From IMG/VR virus record IMGVR_UViG_2917870735_000003: 45,010 nucleotides of DNA, one strand, 5' to 3'. The first letter of the stretch is position 1; each line of letters opens with the position of its first letter. This DNA comes from a virus. Taxonomy: Duplodnaviria > Heunggongvirae > Uroviricota > Caudoviricetes. The position numbers are program-made. Below, one piece after another: positions 1 to 6,000 of the stretch.

Positions 1-3000
1 TAAAATTCAGTCTGGTCTGCCAGTACTGACCAGGCGTTCTATCTGGAAAACTCGTCTTTATGTTCACCGATCCAAGCGTTTTTCCAATGTAAAAATAAAC
101 GTCTTCCTCTGGCACATAGCAGTCCTAAAGATAGTGGCGTACAGTCATAGATGGTCGGTGGGAGGAGGTGCAAATCCTCTCATACAAAAAAATACGTAAA
201 ATCGATAACGGCTGGAAATAATTCAATACTTGCACTATCGGAAGTTCACCAGCCAGCCGCAGTATCCTATCATGACAAGTTACTGCGGCTTTTTATATTT
301 AACGGATCAACAGCCAGACCAGCAGACACACCACCACTGGCACAGCAAAATCCATCAGGCTTGCCACATCCCATGCCCGAGGATCAAAACCGCCCCACCA
401 CGGCATGTTAATCCGCTTGCCATGCCCGAACATTTCAATCCAGCGATATTCTGCCTGGGTATGTTCACGCGCAATGAAGAACGTACAACCAGCTATCGCA
501 CCGTAAGCCCAGTTTCCGGTAAAAAGGCCAATCAGTACCTGCGCAGCCACAGCACAAAGCGCATGAAGTAAGGGGCTTATATCCATTACTCCTCCTTTAT
601 CCGATATCGCTTCAGGAAGTTGATAACAACTTTAATTCTGACTCAAGTTCTTCAACTCTTTCAGTCAGTTTCTGGATATGGTGAATCAGTGGAACAACCA
701 GACGTTCGTACATTACACCTTCGGCAACAAGGCCATTGCTGGAAATAGCTTCAGGAGCATCATTCTCGTTAGCTGGTCGCCAGTGTACAAACTGAGGGGC
801 AATTTCTCCTACTTCCTCGGCAATCAACCCGTAGAATCCCCAGTCACGCCTGTCATTTTCGCATTGCGACCTGTACCACACAGGGCGCATCTTGAAAATG
901 AGATCGGCGTGCTCTGAATCTATCGTCTCTACTGAATGTTTATAGCGAATAGACGATGTTGACCGCAGTACAGACGAAATTGCGGGGTCAGGATTAAGAT
1001 AAAGGTTTGCCGCCGCTGTAGTCGTGCCCAATCCCCACAAATAAAACGCTTCACGACCAGTCAGCGGGTAAAAATCTCCACCATAACGACCGCTTTCCAG
1101 ATCATTCACTTCTACTTTGTTTTTGAGCTTATTATCCACTTCAGTTTTTGAGTATCTGGTGCTGATATCCTGCTTTGCACTGGTCATATCAGTCTGAAGT
1201 GTTGATACTTTTACGTTAATTGAGGAAATATCTTCCTTAGCTTTACTGACATCTCCCTTTAGCGTGGTGATGTCTCCTGGAATTACTGTCGATGTAGCCA
1301 TTTGTCTCCCTTACATCCAGCCACGAATTTGATGATCAATAGCAATTGCGTATTCATCGAATATTGACGGTGTTTTGACATCATTAATGATGCGTACGTT
1401 TACAAAATATCCGTCTTCCTTAACACATACCGGCTCGCCATCGTCAGTCAGTTCTCCGGTTTCTTTATACACGTCACCTATCACGTCAATGAGAATATCA
1501 TCCTGCATCGACTCGTCATCATAATAGCCAGTGCTATCCATAAAGGCCGAAAAGTCGGCCCTGTCTTCAAATTTGAGTGTTAAATCTTTCATTTAATACT
1601 CTCCCCCATTTGCGCATCAGTTAATTCTTTATGCCATATTCTGAAATTCCTGACATGACCAAATAAATGGCGTAAACCGGCTGTAGTCTGGCCTCCAATA
1701 CGGATAATTGCGGAGTTCTGAATATATGACCATGTGGTTTTTGTTTCGCTGGATATACGCCCGTTACTTACTGCGCATGTAGACTGATCAGACTTTACAC
1801 GCATCCCCATAACCATTTTTTCAAGTGATGCATTTTCGTTTATCCGTCTGTTAGACCCACCAATATCGCAATAAGGAAATCCGTCGTAATCTGCTGAAGA
1901 ACCGAAGCCAAGAATAATAGCCGCTCCGGTTTGATGACCGCCGGTATCAAAAACACGCGGTGCTGCATTTGGCGTTTTATACCAGTTCTTATGTACCTCA
2001 CAAAGAACCGTAAAAGGAAGATTATAAAGATTATTCTTAATTGGGACTGTAACTATATCGCTTGCCCGCGTTACCGGTGCCGCCCCCGTAACAATAAAAG
2101 ATGATGCGCCTGTACCAGCCTCAATCTGTGGAGTGGTTACATCGAGATAATCCCCTGATGCCACCATCTGCCCTGTATCCGGAGAATACTGGACGAAACC
2201 ACCAACCGTATTTTCTGTTGTATCTGCTTTTAATGTAGCCTCAAAAAATATCCAGCCAGTTGCATCTTCCTTAACAGACCTTGCTGTAACACGGCTTGTC
2301 TGGCCTGTCTTGCTAATTATGCGGGTGGTAAGGTTCAGGCTTGCTGCTCCTATTGATGTCCTTACCTCCCCATCATAATGTTCAAATAAAATACGAACGG
2401 CGATATTATCAACTTCACTTTTTACCCGACAGGATATAGTTACATACTTTTCGTCACCTGAAGTATCAACCCCTCCGGTACTCGAATACAGCCCTATAAT
2501 GGTATGCGCTTTACTTGTGCCAACAATCGAATCCTGTACGACAAACCGGCCATAATTAAAACCGAAACTATCCGTGCCTGTTTCTGTAACGTCCAGTGAA
2601 GTTGACTTATTCCACTTCGAAGGGTCTGTACTGTTCGGGAAGAAGTTCGTTCTTTGCCCCTCAATAAGCAGGCCATCACGTTCAAATCGTGGCTCGTCAA
2701 TGGCAGCCTCTGTCAGCACACCAGATTTATTAATATAGGTTGCTTTCGATGCGCGTTTAAACTTAACAACCTTGTCGCCAGGCATCGTTATTTCATCATC
2801 ACCAATAACAATCTTTTTATATGATGGCGAAAAGCCCGTAATCATATCCAGTGAATCGTTAAACGGTATCCACACATCAGGCAGCGGATGCAAAACTTGT
2901 TTATACGGCTCTGCAGCCTGGCTTGCATACTTCCTGGCTGCGTCTTCACTTGCTTTTGCAGCCGTCTGGCTTGCAGCGGATGCTTTCGCCGAGTTAGCCG

Positions 3001-6000
3001 CTGCAGTCTCGCTCGCCTTTGCGTTGGTTTCACTGGTTTTTGCAGCTTTTTGACTGTTGGCTGATGCAGTGGCAGAGGCCGCCGCCGCGCTTGCAGAACC
3101 AGCTGCAGCACTCTCGCTTTGGGCGGCTGCATCCTGACTGCTTTTTGCCGCAGTTTCGCTGGCTTTGGCATTCGTTTCGCTGGTCTTCGCTGCCGTCTGG
3201 CTGGACTTTGCGTTAGTTTCACTCGTCTTCGCAGCTTTCTGGCTGTTAGCTGCTGCAGTTGCTGATCCAGCAGCTGAAGTCGCAGAACCGGCAGCAGCAC
3301 TCTCGCTTTCGGCTGCTGCAGCCTGACTGCTTTTCGCCGCAGTTTCACTGGTTTTGGCATTCGTTTCGCTGGTTTTCGCTGCCGTCTGGCTGGACTTTGC
3401 GTTGGTTTCGCTCGTCTTTGCGGCTGTCTCGCTGTTTTTCGCGTTGGTTTCTGATTTTTTGGCTGCTGTCGCGGAGTTTGCCGATGCAGTCTGTGAGGTC
3501 GCTGCCGCCTGTGCGCTGTTAGCTGCATTCGTTTCTGAGGTTTTCGCCGCGTTCTTCGATGATGCCGCTGCAGTTTCGGATTTCTTTGCCGCCGCTGCGC
3601 TCTGAGAGGCGGCTTCGGCGTTGCGTGCCGCTTCTTCCACCATTTCCTCAAAACGACGCAATGCCTCCGGCATGACATCATCTTCCGTCATGGCACCGAG
3701 AAAATCATTCAGCGTACCTGGTCTGGAACCTTCATAGACGGTAATGGTCCCGGCATGTGAAGGCGGAAAACCTTCAACCAGCAGGGTGACGCTGTACTGG
3801 CCATCCTCAACATCCATGCTGTAACGCCCGGCTTCATCCGGATTTTCAGAGGCCACCGTGTTCACCAGTACCGTGGTGCTGTTACGCTTTGCCTTCAGTT
3901 GAATAGTGCAGTTCTGTATTGGTTTTCCCGCACCATCTTTCAGCACACCTGAAATCTGTACTGCCATACTCACTCCACAAATAAAAAAGGCGCCATTTCT
4001 GGCGCCCGTATTGGGGTTATAAATATTTCAACGGATACTGATACCGGAAGCAGCTTTTTTGGTCACAATCACTGTACAGTCTGTGATGTTACCTGCGCCC
4101 TGATTGCCTTTCTGGAAAATCTTAAACTCCAGAGTGACGCTACCACCACCACTCGGCATATCAATAACCGCACTGTAACTACCGGGAATGGCTCCTTTAG
4201 TTTCTCTGGTTGCGATTAATACGCCGTTTTTGCGAACTTCAAAACCATAACCCGTGTATCGCGTACCACCCGGGTTATTACCGCTCCCCGGATCGTCATA
4301 CGCCACACCATTAAAAATAATGGGCGGAATAATGATTTGGCGGTCAAAGTTATGATCATCGTAAATGGTGACTGTAACCGTCCCGCCTGGTGTTTCCGTA
4401 TCGCCCCACGAGCCAGTTTTTTTCGGGAATGGCTTAGATACAGCTTTAACGAAGTCACCTCTGACCTGAGTAGCCTCGAGCATTCCCTTAATCGTACAGT
4501 TCTCATTTATCGTGACGTTGTTGAGCGTCCCGGAGTTCGCATTCACGTTACCGCTGATATCGGCATTTTTCGCCGTCAGCCGCCCGTCCGGTGTCAGGGA
4601 AAATACCGGCGGATTGCCACCGCTGGTAATGGTGGGAGCCGTCAGATACTTCAGGAACACTTCGTTCATGAATATCTGGTTGCCCTGCGCCACAAACATC
4701 GGAGTTTCATTCCCGTTTGCCGGGTCAATAAACGCGATACGGTTAGCGGCAACCAGGAACTGGCTCAGTTTACCTTCCGGCGTGTCCTCCATACTGAGGC
4801 CAAGCCCCGCGACATAATGCCTGCCGTCTTTGGTCTGCTCAATTTTGACGCCCCACATGGCATTCCATTTATCGTTGGCGTCTTTCCACTCTTTCGAAAA
4901 CTCCTCCAGTTTGCTGGCGTTATCCTCCGTCAGCTCGACTTTTTCCAGCAGCTCCTTGCCGAGATGGGATTCGGTTATCTGGCCTTTGAAAAAATCCAGG
5001 TAACCTTCCGCATCATCGCTCGCCCGACCGACAGCCTCCACGAATGCCGATTTGCCAACAGTATTCACACTGCGGATATAAAAATAATAATCATGGCCCG
5101 GCTTAATATTGATACTGGCAGCTATCCAGTACAGCGCCGTGCCAAGATAGCGGGCTGTAGTTTCAACCTGCCTGATATCCGCAATCCGCTTTTCCGAGAA
5201 CCAGAACTCAAACTGTACCGTCGGATCATAAACGGCAAGATGGGGCGTGGCGGTTATCTGAAAATAGCCCGGCGTCAGCTCAATCCGCGACGGCGCTGCC
5301 GGTGCGGCAATCCGGAACGATACCGACGCCGGATCGCCCTGCTGTCCCCACGCATTTACCGCCCGGACTGTCAGCCTGTAGTTTCCCAGCGCCAGTTGCC
5401 TGAAGCGGTATGTGGTTTCCGTCGTCCGGGCCGTGCTGACCAGCCGTTCACTGCCATCATCCGCAGCCACAGTCAGGCGAAGCAGGAAGCTCACGCCCTT
5501 CACCACCTTCGGCGTGTCCCAGCGCGCCAGCACCTGATGTTCCCCGCTGTCTGCGGTGACTTCTGCAGTCAGGTGCTGCACCGCTGGCGGCGTGACACCA
5601 TTCACCGTGCCGCTCTGGTCGCCGTCAAAGTGCGCCCCGTTATCCACGATGGCTTCTTTCTCCGGTACATGCTGCACGGCGGTGATGGCATACGTGCCGT
5701 CATCGTTCTCACGGATACTCACACAGCGGAACAGGCGCTGGCGCAGCGTCGGCAACTTCAGCCCCCACACGCTGTATTCAGCAACGCCGTCAGGAACACG
5801 GCTCACTTTCACCTTCACACCGTCGGTGACGGACTGGACCTCCACGCTGACCGGATTCCCCTGTCCGTCAACCAGGCTTATCAGCGTGGTGCCGGAGGAT
5901 GGCAGCGTGATTTCACGGTCGAGCGTCAGTGTCCGCGTCTGGCTGTTCACCGCCAGCACGCGCCCGCCGATGCTGATCCCCGCATAGTCATCATCACAGA

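What the first reader, a model, noticed from the sequence alone, without database searches (positions are those of the whole stretch)
612..3973. Chimeric tail-fibre module: lambda Stf stem with lectin-like tip, no Tfa, plus a short S74-chaperone fibre
The Stf N-terminus is lambda-like but the distal ~400 aa end in a concanavalin-A/LamG-like segment. The gene has a 189-bp in-frame tandem repeat that can expand or contract. No Tfa-like chaperone follows; instead there is a coupled 93-aa acidic protein and a 229-aa protein that is half S74-type intramolecular chaperone. lom is absent and a terminator separates J from stf. This suggests a glycan-targeting fibre with unusual assembly.
Basis: partly seen in the sequence, partly recalled or inferred. 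Interest (0 to 1): 0.6.

Follow-up and report, generated by a model that had tools for sequence, protein, structure and literature searches.

The report
Lectin-tipped two-part prophage side tail fibre
This is a real but common E. coli prophage tail-fibre cassette: a lambda-type fibre whose stalk length varies by repeat number and whose tip has two sugar-binding-type domains, followed by a small partner protein of unknown function and a very short second fibre that probably cleaves off its own folding domain.

Summary
All genes are on the minus strand. J (4028-7441) is followed by a terminator-like hairpin (3988-4007) and then stf. The true stf start is the ATG at 3967 (792 aa), not the GTG at 3973.

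- **Stf stem:** the lambda-type collar and coiled-coil stalk are 59% identical to lambda orf-401.
- **Repeat:** the 189-bp in-frame repeat is real. Related alleles lack exactly one 63-aa unit, or 105 aa.
- **Missing genes:** no Tfa, gp37-like tip or Lom is found anywhere in the window.
- **93-aa protein:** acidic, translationally coupled to stf, and without a Tfa-like sequence or fold.
- **229-aa protein:** a docking N-terminus, a short coiled coil and an S74 chaperone with an intact Ser116/Lys121 dyad, but no receptor-binding insert.

The cassette is not unusual. The same three-gene order occurs in T5-like, T1-like and 9g-like coliphages, and partly in rV5-like phages and phage 21. The short-fibre gene is in 740 of 5426 complete E. 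coli genomes. The roles of the 93-aa protein and the minimal fibre are unknown. Interest is low to moderate.

The parts
3988..4007 (-). Terminator-like hairpin between the J stop and stf
   Evidence: 8-bp stem, 6 GC pairs, 4-nt loop, T-rich tail. Phage 21 has a terminator annotated at the same position.
1589..3967 (-). stf, side tail fibre gene, 792 aa counted from the ATG at 3967 (the ORF caller gave a GTG at 3973)
   Evidence: phrog_1419 'tail protein' matches full length, 793/793 profile positions.
3686..3967 (-). Stf N-terminal collar domain (about aa 1-94) that anchors the fibre to the tail tip
   Evidence: Pfam PF08400 E 6e-67. PDB 9e7m 'Tail fiber protein', 94 aa, E 2e-47. The lambda collar structure is described in PMC12617516.
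2912..3664 (-). Ala/Ser/Thr-rich coiled-coil stalk (about aa 102-352), 36 unbroken heptads
   Evidence: Ser in 32 of 36 heptads at one position and Ala in 32 of 36 at another, with 3/4 spacing. Homologous to lambda Stf residues 102-393, modelled as the proximal coiled coil (PMC12617516).
2999..3436 (-). 189-bp (63-aa) in-frame tandem repeat, 2.3 copies, inside the stalk
   Evidence: Allele length differences of exactly 63 aa and 105 aa map here.
1592..2881 (-). Stf tip module (about aa 363-792): a conserved neck plus two ConA-like beta-sandwich domains
2063..2668 (-). First sandwich, GTA head-spike-fibre-like domain; the most variable part of the tip
   Evidence: NCBIfam NF048003 E 6e-19, 69 bits against a cutoff of 36, residues 436-637 of the 794-aa ORF. 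Highest column entropy across 63 homologues. Swapped independently of its flanks.
1592..2035 (-). C-terminal LamG-like sandwich ending ...LFGHVRNFRIWHKELTDAQM...
1311..1592 (-). 93-aa acidic protein (pI 4.05), start overlaps the stf stop (ATGA); phrog_1361, no known function
   Evidence: A ~90-aa homologue follows the tip gene in all 14 other loci examined.
954..1301 (-). 229-aa protein, predicted mature part (aa 1-116): docking N-terminus, about 6 heptads of coiled coil, and a 45-aa pre-cleavage segment
   Evidence: Invariant M1, T3, T5, I7, P8, D10, I11, L14 in 6 homologues. Heptad pattern. One copy of the LtfA-type 19-aa motif.
612..953 (-). 229-aa protein, S74 intramolecular chaperone (aa 117-229) plus stop codon
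   Evidence: Pfam PF13884 at 27.5 bits against 22. Aligns to the C-terminus of DT57C LtfA, PDB 8hqz_d. S116 and K121 are invariant.
299..586 (-). 95-aa predicted membrane protein, last gene of the operon (phrog_1443); belongs to the temperate-phage version of the cassette
   Evidence: It has its own AAGGAGG Shine-Dalgarno sequence.

Best explanation
The region is the side-tail-fibre operon of a lambdoid E. coli prophage. It is built on the widespread two-part lateral fibre plan rather than on lambda's Stf/Tfa plan.

**Shown here**
- The Stf chain has a lambda-type collar domain and a coiled-coil stalk.
- Stalk length is set by the copy number of 7/14/63-aa repeats: about 255 aa here against about 150 aa in most alleles. 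At 0.15 nm per helical residue that is roughly 38 nm against 22 nm; the conversion to length is my inference.
- The tip has two ConA-like beta-sandwiches per chain. One is a member of the GTA head-spike-fibre domain family.
- A 93-aa acidic protein is translationally coupled to the tip.
- A 229-aa protein carries the N-terminal motif shared by distal fibres in this gene position, a short coiled coil, and an S74 chaperone with an intact Ser116/Lys121 pair.

**Inferred**
- The variable first sandwich binds a surface glycan (O-antigen or capsule) as the reversible first receptor, before J engages the terminal receptor.
- The 93-aa protein is a tip-specific assembly or junction subunit that takes the place of Tfa.
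- The 229-aa protein trimerises, docks by its N-terminus on the Stf tip junction, and cleaves after Ser116. That leaves a 116-aa stub without its own receptor-binding domain.

The C-terminal sandwich, the 93-aa gene and the first ~20 codons of the distal fibre are inherited together, which suggests they form one co-adapted junction.
For: - **Stem:**
- **Repeat and allele lengths:**
- **Tip fold:**. NF048003 is above its cutoff. The RcGTA head spike fibre binds capsular polysaccharide experimentally (PMC10218006).
- **Tip as a mobile module:** it sits at the C-terminus of proteins with many different N-termini, in 2276 clusters at 50% identity. Among the phage records examined it occurs in T5-like, T1-like, 9g-like, Dhillonvirus and rV5-like phages.
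- **Same three-gene order:** IrisVonRoten gp22/23/24, KarlJaspers gp37/36/35, JenP2, ESCO3, SelmaRatti and PhiR11_1*. PMC11990801 models gp24 as attaching to the proximal fibre gp22, which ends in a 'galectin-like' domain.
- **Lateral fibres and O-antigen:** lateral fibres of these siphophages bind O-antigen as a facultative first receptor (PMC8594841, PMC4728585).
- **Purifying selection:** dN/dS is 0.27 for the S74 gene and 0.22-0.47 for the 93-aa gene.
- **Mosaic breakpoints:** they define the co-inherited junction.
Against: - No binding, cleavage or virion-composition data exist for this cassette.
- Both structure models are monomers, so trimer geometry and contacts between the three proteins are untested.
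- Phage 21, PhiR49_2 and PhiR41_1 keep the ~90-aa protein but have no distal fibre. The small protein therefore cannot be only an adaptor for that fibre.
- PhiR49_2 pairs an 86.5%-identical tip with a 93-aa homologue that is only 39% identical. This argues against tight tip-specific co-evolution.
- The minimal fibre has no receptor-binding insert, so what it contributes to adsorption is unclear.
Confidence: 0.7

Rival explanations
1. The 93-aa protein is purely a folding chaperone for the ConA-like tip, a functional replacement for Tfa. It is not part of the virion and has no role in holding the distal fibre.
For: It accompanies the tip whether or not a distal fibre follows: phage 21, PhiR49_2, PhiR41_1 and rV5-like LL12. 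It is translationally coupled to stf and strongly acidic. Tip and 93-aa hits have nearly the same distribution in the phage collection, 223 and 181 records.
Confidence: 0.3
2. The 229-aa protein is not a fibre. It is a trans-acting chaperone, as the 61%-identical KarlJaspers gene is annotated ('putative lateral tail fiber chaperone'), or a non-functional remnant of a longer distal fibre that lost its receptor-binding domain.
For: It has no receptor-binding insert, unlike the 348-574-aa relatives. Half of it is chaperone domain. The BASEL genome annotation calls it a chaperone.
Against: - The minimal form (225-234 aa) is conserved in virulent T1-like phages and in lambdoid phages.
- It occurs in 740 of 5426 complete E. 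coli genomes at 90% nucleotide identity or more.
- dN/dS is 0.27, and it has its own Shine-Dalgarno sequence.
- It keeps the invariant docking N-terminus and the Ser/Lys pair.
- From general knowledge, known S74 domains act in cis on the chain that carries them.
Confidence: 0.2
3. The tip sandwiches are enzymatic (for example a GH16-type glycanase) or bind a protein receptor, rather than acting as lectins.
Confidence: 0.12

Closest known systems
Tequintavirus IrisVonRoten (Bas32) lateral fibre locus gp22-gp23-gp24 (Humolli et al. 2025, PMC11990801)
   Same: Same three-gene order and similar sizes for the first two genes (796 aa / 92 aa / 574 aa). The gp22 tip is 64% identical to the window tip by tblastn. 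gp23 is a homologue of the 93-aa protein (34% identity). gp24 shares the N-terminal motif and the S74 chaperone. gp22 is described there as a proximal fibre ending in a predicted galectin-like domain, to which gp24 attaches.
   Different: The N-terminal anchor is T5/LtfA-type, not the lambda collar. gp24 carries two receptor-binding domains (a T-shaped fibre), whereas the window's 229-aa protein has none. IrisVonRoten is virulent and lacks the 95-aa membrane gene.
Phage 21 side tail fibre locus (OL657228: CPT_21_22 to CPT_21_24)
   Same: Lambdoid late operon with J, a terminator, stf without lom, then a 92-aa coupled protein and the ~95-aa membrane protein. The tip belongs to the same family.
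   Different: There is no S74 short-fibre gene. The stalk is shorter (686 aa in total). Its 92-aa protein is only 49% identical and groups with the alleles from phages without a distal fibre.
Branched lateral tail fibres LtfA/LtfB of T5-like phage DT57C (Golomidova et al. 2016, PMC4728585; Ayala et al. 2023, PMC10713586)
   Same: The concept is a proximal fibre that carries a second fibre through that fibre's conserved N-terminus. Both have S74 auto-cleaving chaperones and both target O-antigen. The S74 part of the 229-aa protein aligns to the LtfA C-terminus in PDB 8hqz_d.
   Different: In DT57C the proximal fibre itself ends in an S74 chaperone rather than ConA-like sandwiches, and the text read describes no ~90-aa gene between the two. 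I did not compare the LtfB N-terminus with the motif found here.
Lambda Stf/Tfa (Ur-lambda; PMC12617516)
   Same: Collar domain and proximal coiled coil: 59% identity over 342 aligned positions, higher in the collar.
   Different: Lambda's distal half is gp37-like, needs Tfa and binds OmpC. All three features are absent here.
Drexlerviridae KarlJaspers (Bas06) gp37-gp36-gp35
   Same: The closest counterpart of the minimal short fibre outside temperate phages: gp35 is 225 aa, 61% identical, and also lacks a receptor-binding insert. The gene order is the same.
   Different: T1-like virulent phage with a different fibre anchor. gp35 is annotated as a chaperone, and neither reading has been tested.

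Membership tests
Lambda-type side tail fibre (Stf) | N-terminal collar domain (Pfam PF08400 phage_tail_N) | tested here: met
   E 6.1e-67, 224 bits against a cutoff of 26.6. PDB 9e7m E 2.2e-47 over residues 3-96.
Lambda-type side tail fibre (Stf) | Proximal trimeric coiled-coil stalk homologous to lambda Stf 102-393 | tested here: met
   59% identity to lambda orf-401 over 342 aligned positions. 36 unbroken heptads with fixed Ser and Ala positions. Trimer state was not tested.
Lambda-type side tail fibre (Stf) | gp37-like distal half (lambda orf-314) | tested here: not met
   tblastn of orf-314 against the whole window: best E 1.3. The tip model is made of ConA-like sandwiches.
Lambda-type side tail fibre (Stf) | Tfa (Caudo_TAP) assembly gene immediately downstream | tested here: not met
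ConA-like lectin/glucanase superfamily | Beta-sandwich jelly-roll fold | tested here: met
ConA-like lectin/glucanase superfamily | Membership of a curated sequence family | tested here: met
   NCBIfam NF048003 GTA_spike_fiber at 69.2 bits against a cutoff of 36, for the first sandwich. For the second sandwich, Pfam Laminin_G_3 scores only 15.2 bits against 27.6, so that domain is below threshold.
ConA-like lectin/glucanase superfamily | Carbohydrate binding | not testable with these tools
   Inferred only, from the homologous RcGTA head spike fibre binding capsule (PMC10218006) and the role of lateral fibres in O-antigen recognition (PMC8594841).
Peptidase S74 intramolecular chaperone | Pfam PF13884 above the gathering score, at the C-terminus of the protein | tested here: met
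   27.5 bits against 22, residues 116-172. Aligns to DT57C LtfA 952-1067.
Peptidase S74 intramolecular chaperone | Catalytic Ser and Lys five residues apart at the cleavage site | tested here: met
   S116 and K121 are invariant in six homologues of 225-574 aa. The dyad spacing itself is recalled from the endosialidase literature, not tested here.
Peptidase S74 intramolecular chaperone | Autoproteolytic release after trimer folding | not testable with these tools
   Needs expression and SDS-PAGE or mass spectrometry.
Two-part (branched) lateral tail fibre | Gene order: proximal fibre, then a distal fibre with a conserved N-terminal attachment motif | tested here: met
   The order is conserved in the loci that carry a distal fibre. 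The N-terminal motif is invariant and also present in PhiR11_1*.
Two-part (branched) lateral tail fibre | Distal fibre carries its own receptor-binding domain | tested here: not met
   The alignment shows no insert between the coiled coil and the chaperone. Relatives have inserts of about 120 to 350 aa.
Two-part (branched) lateral tail fibre | Physical attachment of the distal fibre to the proximal fibre | not testable with these tools
   Only monomer predictions were possible. The attachment in IrisVonRoten is itself an AlphaFold-Multimer model (PMC11990801).

The most novel reading that the evidence does not exclude
The ~90-aa acidic protein (phrog_1361) is a previously unrecognised class of tail-fibre junction protein. 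In this reading it replaces Tfa-type chaperones for lectin-tipped fibres across several coliphage families and forms the socket that accepts interchangeable distal fibres. The receptor-domain-less 229-aa protein is then a 'blank plug' that fills that socket. That would make the cassette a natural plug-and-play adaptor system for changing host range.
Probability: 0.25. Interest if true: 0.55.

Novelty: new member of a known kind. Interest (0 to 1): 0.3.

Why it matters
Lambda-derived particles with swapped side fibres are already used to deliver DNA to gut E. coli (bioRxiv 10.1101/2022.09.30.509847). This cassette is a Tfa-independent, glycan-type tip sitting naturally on a lambda stem. Its stalk length is tunable by repeat number, and its junction accepts different distal fibres.

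Working out what the 93-aa protein and the minimal S74 fibre do would show how to transplant such tips. It would also explain two genes present in a large share of E. coli prophages: the tip family is in 1791 of 5426 complete genomes and the short fibre in 740. As a discovery it is modest, because the architecture has already been seen in the BASEL phages.

Tried and rejected
- **PDB sequence searches:** the Stf tip and the 93-aa protein found nothing relevant.
- **Pfam on the two tip halves separately:** only a sub-threshold Laminin_G_3 hit.
- **PADLOC on the three small proteins:** nothing.
- **Structure job with locus-derived homologues:** I spent the last protein search on a profile of distant 93-aa homologues to get an admissible, diverse alignment. 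As a result the 229-aa protein got no large-database search and no structure model.
- **Literature:** searches for work on this cassette in lambdoid prophages, on the ECOR 'PhiR' phages, or on minimal S74 proteins found no dedicated study. The Hf4s and Webervirus papers turned out to be unrelated.
- **Remnant hypothesis for the 229-aa ORF:** rejected as the main reading because of its conservation and dN/dS.
- **GH16-type enzyme reading of the tip:** rejected as the main reading because the catalytic motif is absent.
- **Tfa remnant in the window:** a related prophage has Tfa pseudogene fragments downstream, but the window does not.

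
Full report
**Anatomy**

The window is a lambdoid prophage read in reverse, and the finding covers the last genes of its late operon, all on the minus strand.
- J ends at 4028.
- A GC-rich hairpin with a T-run lies at 4007-3988.
- stf follows. The ORF caller's GTG at 3973 lies inside the ribosome-binding site GGAG. The ATG at 3967 gives MAVQISG, as in lambda Stf, so Stf is 792 aa.
- The stf stop overlaps the start of a 93-aa gene (ATGA).
- Nine bases later, behind its own GGGAG, comes a 229-aa gene.
- Then, behind AAGGAGG, comes a 95-aa gene.
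- tblastn of lambda Lom, Tfa and the gp37-like Stf half (orf-314) against all 45 kb finds nothing.

**Stem and repeat**

Residues 1-328 are 59% identical to lambda orf-401. The first ~94 residues match Pfam phage_tail_N (E 6e-67) and the solved 94-residue 'Tail fiber protein' chain in PDB 9e7m (E 2e-47).

Residues ~102-352 form 36 uninterrupted heptads. Ser occupies one position in 32 of 36 heptads and Ala another in 32 of 36. This region corresponds to lambda's proximal coiled coil, residues 102-393 (PMC12617516).

Inside it, Tandem Repeats Finder reports a 189-bp unit, 2.3 copies, 84% matches, at 2999-3436. Among 120 close homologues most are 687 aa, with a 150-aa stalk, and some are 729 aa. 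The window has a 255-aa stalk.

A 729-aa allele differs by one clean 63-aa gap (window residues 182-244), and a 687-aa allele by a 105-aa gap. Copy-number change is therefore real. At 0.15 nm per helical residue, the window's stalk would be about 16 nm longer than the common form; this conversion is my inference.

**Tip**

The last 445 residues were modelled with a 63-sequence alignment spanning 26-97% identity. The model has pLDDT 92.6 and pTM 0.89, and is almost all beta-strand.

Each match aligns at most 224 of the 445 residues (129-193 for all but one). I read this as two sandwiches, but I could not inspect the coordinates.

The first sandwich scores above the curated cutoff of NCBIfam NF048003, the head-spike-fibre domain of the Rhodobacter gene transfer agent (69 bits against 36). 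That fibre binds capsular polysaccharide in experiments (PMC10218006).

The C-terminal sandwich gives only a sub-threshold Laminin_G_3 hit. No GH16-type catalytic motif is present.

Across the homologues, three stretches are conserved, while the body of the first sandwich (455-615) and residues 650-770 are variable:
- the neck, residues 365-445 of the 794-aa ORF
- residues 620-650
- the last ~25 residues

This is the pattern expected if the first sandwich sets receptor specificity.

**The tip is a mobile module**

A search of 1.84 billion representative proteins found 2276 clusters. The module always lies at the C-terminus of proteins of varied length.

In the phage collection 223 records carry it. 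Those examined include lambdoid, T5-like, T1-like, 9g-like, Dhillonvirus and rV5-like phages. So 'chimeric' is correct.

In a close E. coli relative, Tfa pseudogene fragments lie just downstream of the cassette. This looks like a trace of a displaced Stf/Tfa module. The window has no such fragment.

**The 93-aa protein**

It belongs to phrog_1361, which has no assigned function, and has no Pfam, NCBIfam or PADLOC hit. About 350 database clusters exist; every named one is called 'hypothetical' or '(putative) prophage protein', and all come from Escherichia, Shigella or Salmonella or their phages.

A ~90-aa homologue follows the tip gene in all 14 other loci I opened. Its start overlaps or abuts the tip gene's stop. 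This includes divergent 88-89-aa versions recognised only by profile comparison (hhalign probability 98%).

It has no similarity to lambda Tfa, so the 'recognisable Tfa homologue' that would refute the finding is absent. dN/dS is 0.22-0.47.

**The 229-aa protein**

- Pfam S74 matches residues 116-172, above threshold. The C-terminal half aligns to the chaperone end of DT57C LtfA, PDB 8hqz_d.
- In an alignment with five relatives of 225-574 aa, the invariant positions include M1, T3, T5, I7, P8, D10, I11, L14 and also S116 and K121, the presumed cleavage pair.
- The relatives differ by inserts of about 120 to 350 aa between the coiled coil and the chaperone. These are the receptor-binding domains, and the window's protein has none.
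- The minimal form is 94% identical in phage IdasGreatGrand and 61% identical in the virulent T1-like phage KarlJaspers, where it is annotated 'putative lateral tail fiber chaperone'.
- It occurs in 740 of 5426 complete E. coli genomes, and dN/dS is 0.27. It is therefore a maintained gene, not debris.

**How the parts relate**

The closest described system is IrisVonRoten gp22/gp23/gp24. Humolli et al. (PMC11990801) model gp24, a T-shaped fibre with an S74 chaperone, as attaching to the proximal fibre gp22. They note a galectin-like domain protruding from the gp22 C-terminus. The passages I read do not discuss a role for the 92-aa gene product.

The gp22 tip is 64% identical to the window's by tblastn, gp23 is a 93-aa homologue, and gp24 shares the N-terminal motif.

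Nucleotide mosaicism adds a further point:
- ESCO3 shares, at 91% identity, only the C-terminal sandwich, the 93-aa gene and the first ~20 codons of the distal fibre.
- IdasGreatGrand shares the last ~35 codons of stf through the membrane gene, but has a different first sandwich.
- PhiR49_2 shares the whole tip, then switches at the stf stop to a 39%-identical 93-aa allele with no distal fibre, and rejoins at the membrane gene.

The three 93-aa alleles from phages without a distal fibre cluster together (64% identity, against 39-53% to the others). The sample is small and two of the three are near-identical. I read this as a co-adapted junction made of the C-terminal sandwich, the small protein and the distal fibre's N-terminus, with the first sandwich swapping independently.

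Whether the small protein is a structural adaptor, a chaperone or both is open. It persists without a distal fibre, so its role cannot be limited to that fibre.

**Comparison and verdict**

The cassette works like the two-part lateral fibres of T5-like phages (PMC4728585, PMC10713586, PMC11990801), here grafted onto a lambda collar and stalk. It is a member of the Stf family only in its N-terminal half.

The J-terminator-stf arrangement without lom is shared with phage 21. From general knowledge of lambda, Q-antiterminated late transcription reads through such terminators.

The module is common:
- The whole region is present at 80% coverage or more in 136 of 5426 complete E. coli genomes.
- This tip allele is in 296.
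- The tip family is in 1791.
- The short fibre gene is in 740.

It is therefore a new member of a known kind. The remaining interest is the uncharacterised 93-aa protein and the fibre without a receptor domain.

Noticed in passing
window 299-586 (-): A 95-aa predicted two-pass membrane protein (phrog_1443) ends the operon. It stays 91-95% identical at the nucleotide level in phage 21, PhiR49_2, PhiR41_1, PhiR11_1* and IdasGreatGrand, even where the neighbouring genes are swapped. It is absent after the same cassette in virulent phages. No Pfam, NCBIfam or PADLOC hit. It could be a lysogenic-conversion or exclusion gene.
   Followed up: partly
L012 1798-1974 and 2847-2966 (E. coli strain 10035776-3, NZ_CP159170.1): Two 'tail fiber assembly protein' pseudogene fragments lie just downstream of a 95%-identical copy of the cassette. 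This suggests the cassette displaced an older Stf/Tfa module. The window itself has no such fragment.
   Followed up: partly
window 3967-3973: The mechanical ORF start (GTG at 3973) lies inside the Shine-Dalgarno sequence. The ATG at 3967 is the likely start, so residue numbers from the 794-aa ORF are offset by 2.
   Followed up: yes
window 2842-3681 (-) and several + strand ORFs at 2772-3605: Long ORFs in other frames across the stalk repeat (for example a 279-aa Arg/Lys/Gln-rich one) look like frame artefacts of the Ala/Ser/Thr codon repeat, not genes.
   Followed up: no
phage collection records labelled Campylobacter phage (e.g. MG065635) and Listeria phage (e.g. OR849447): These records match the tip and the 93-aa protein at the same identities as rV5-like and T5-like coliphages. 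They probably carry coliphage sequence under a wrong host label.
   Followed up: no
window 1-262: The sequence downstream of the operon matches unannotated intergenic DNA in other E. coli genomes at 97% identity. Positions 191-262 match sequence next to dinI-like genes in two related prophages. The prophage end was not mapped.
   Followed up: partly
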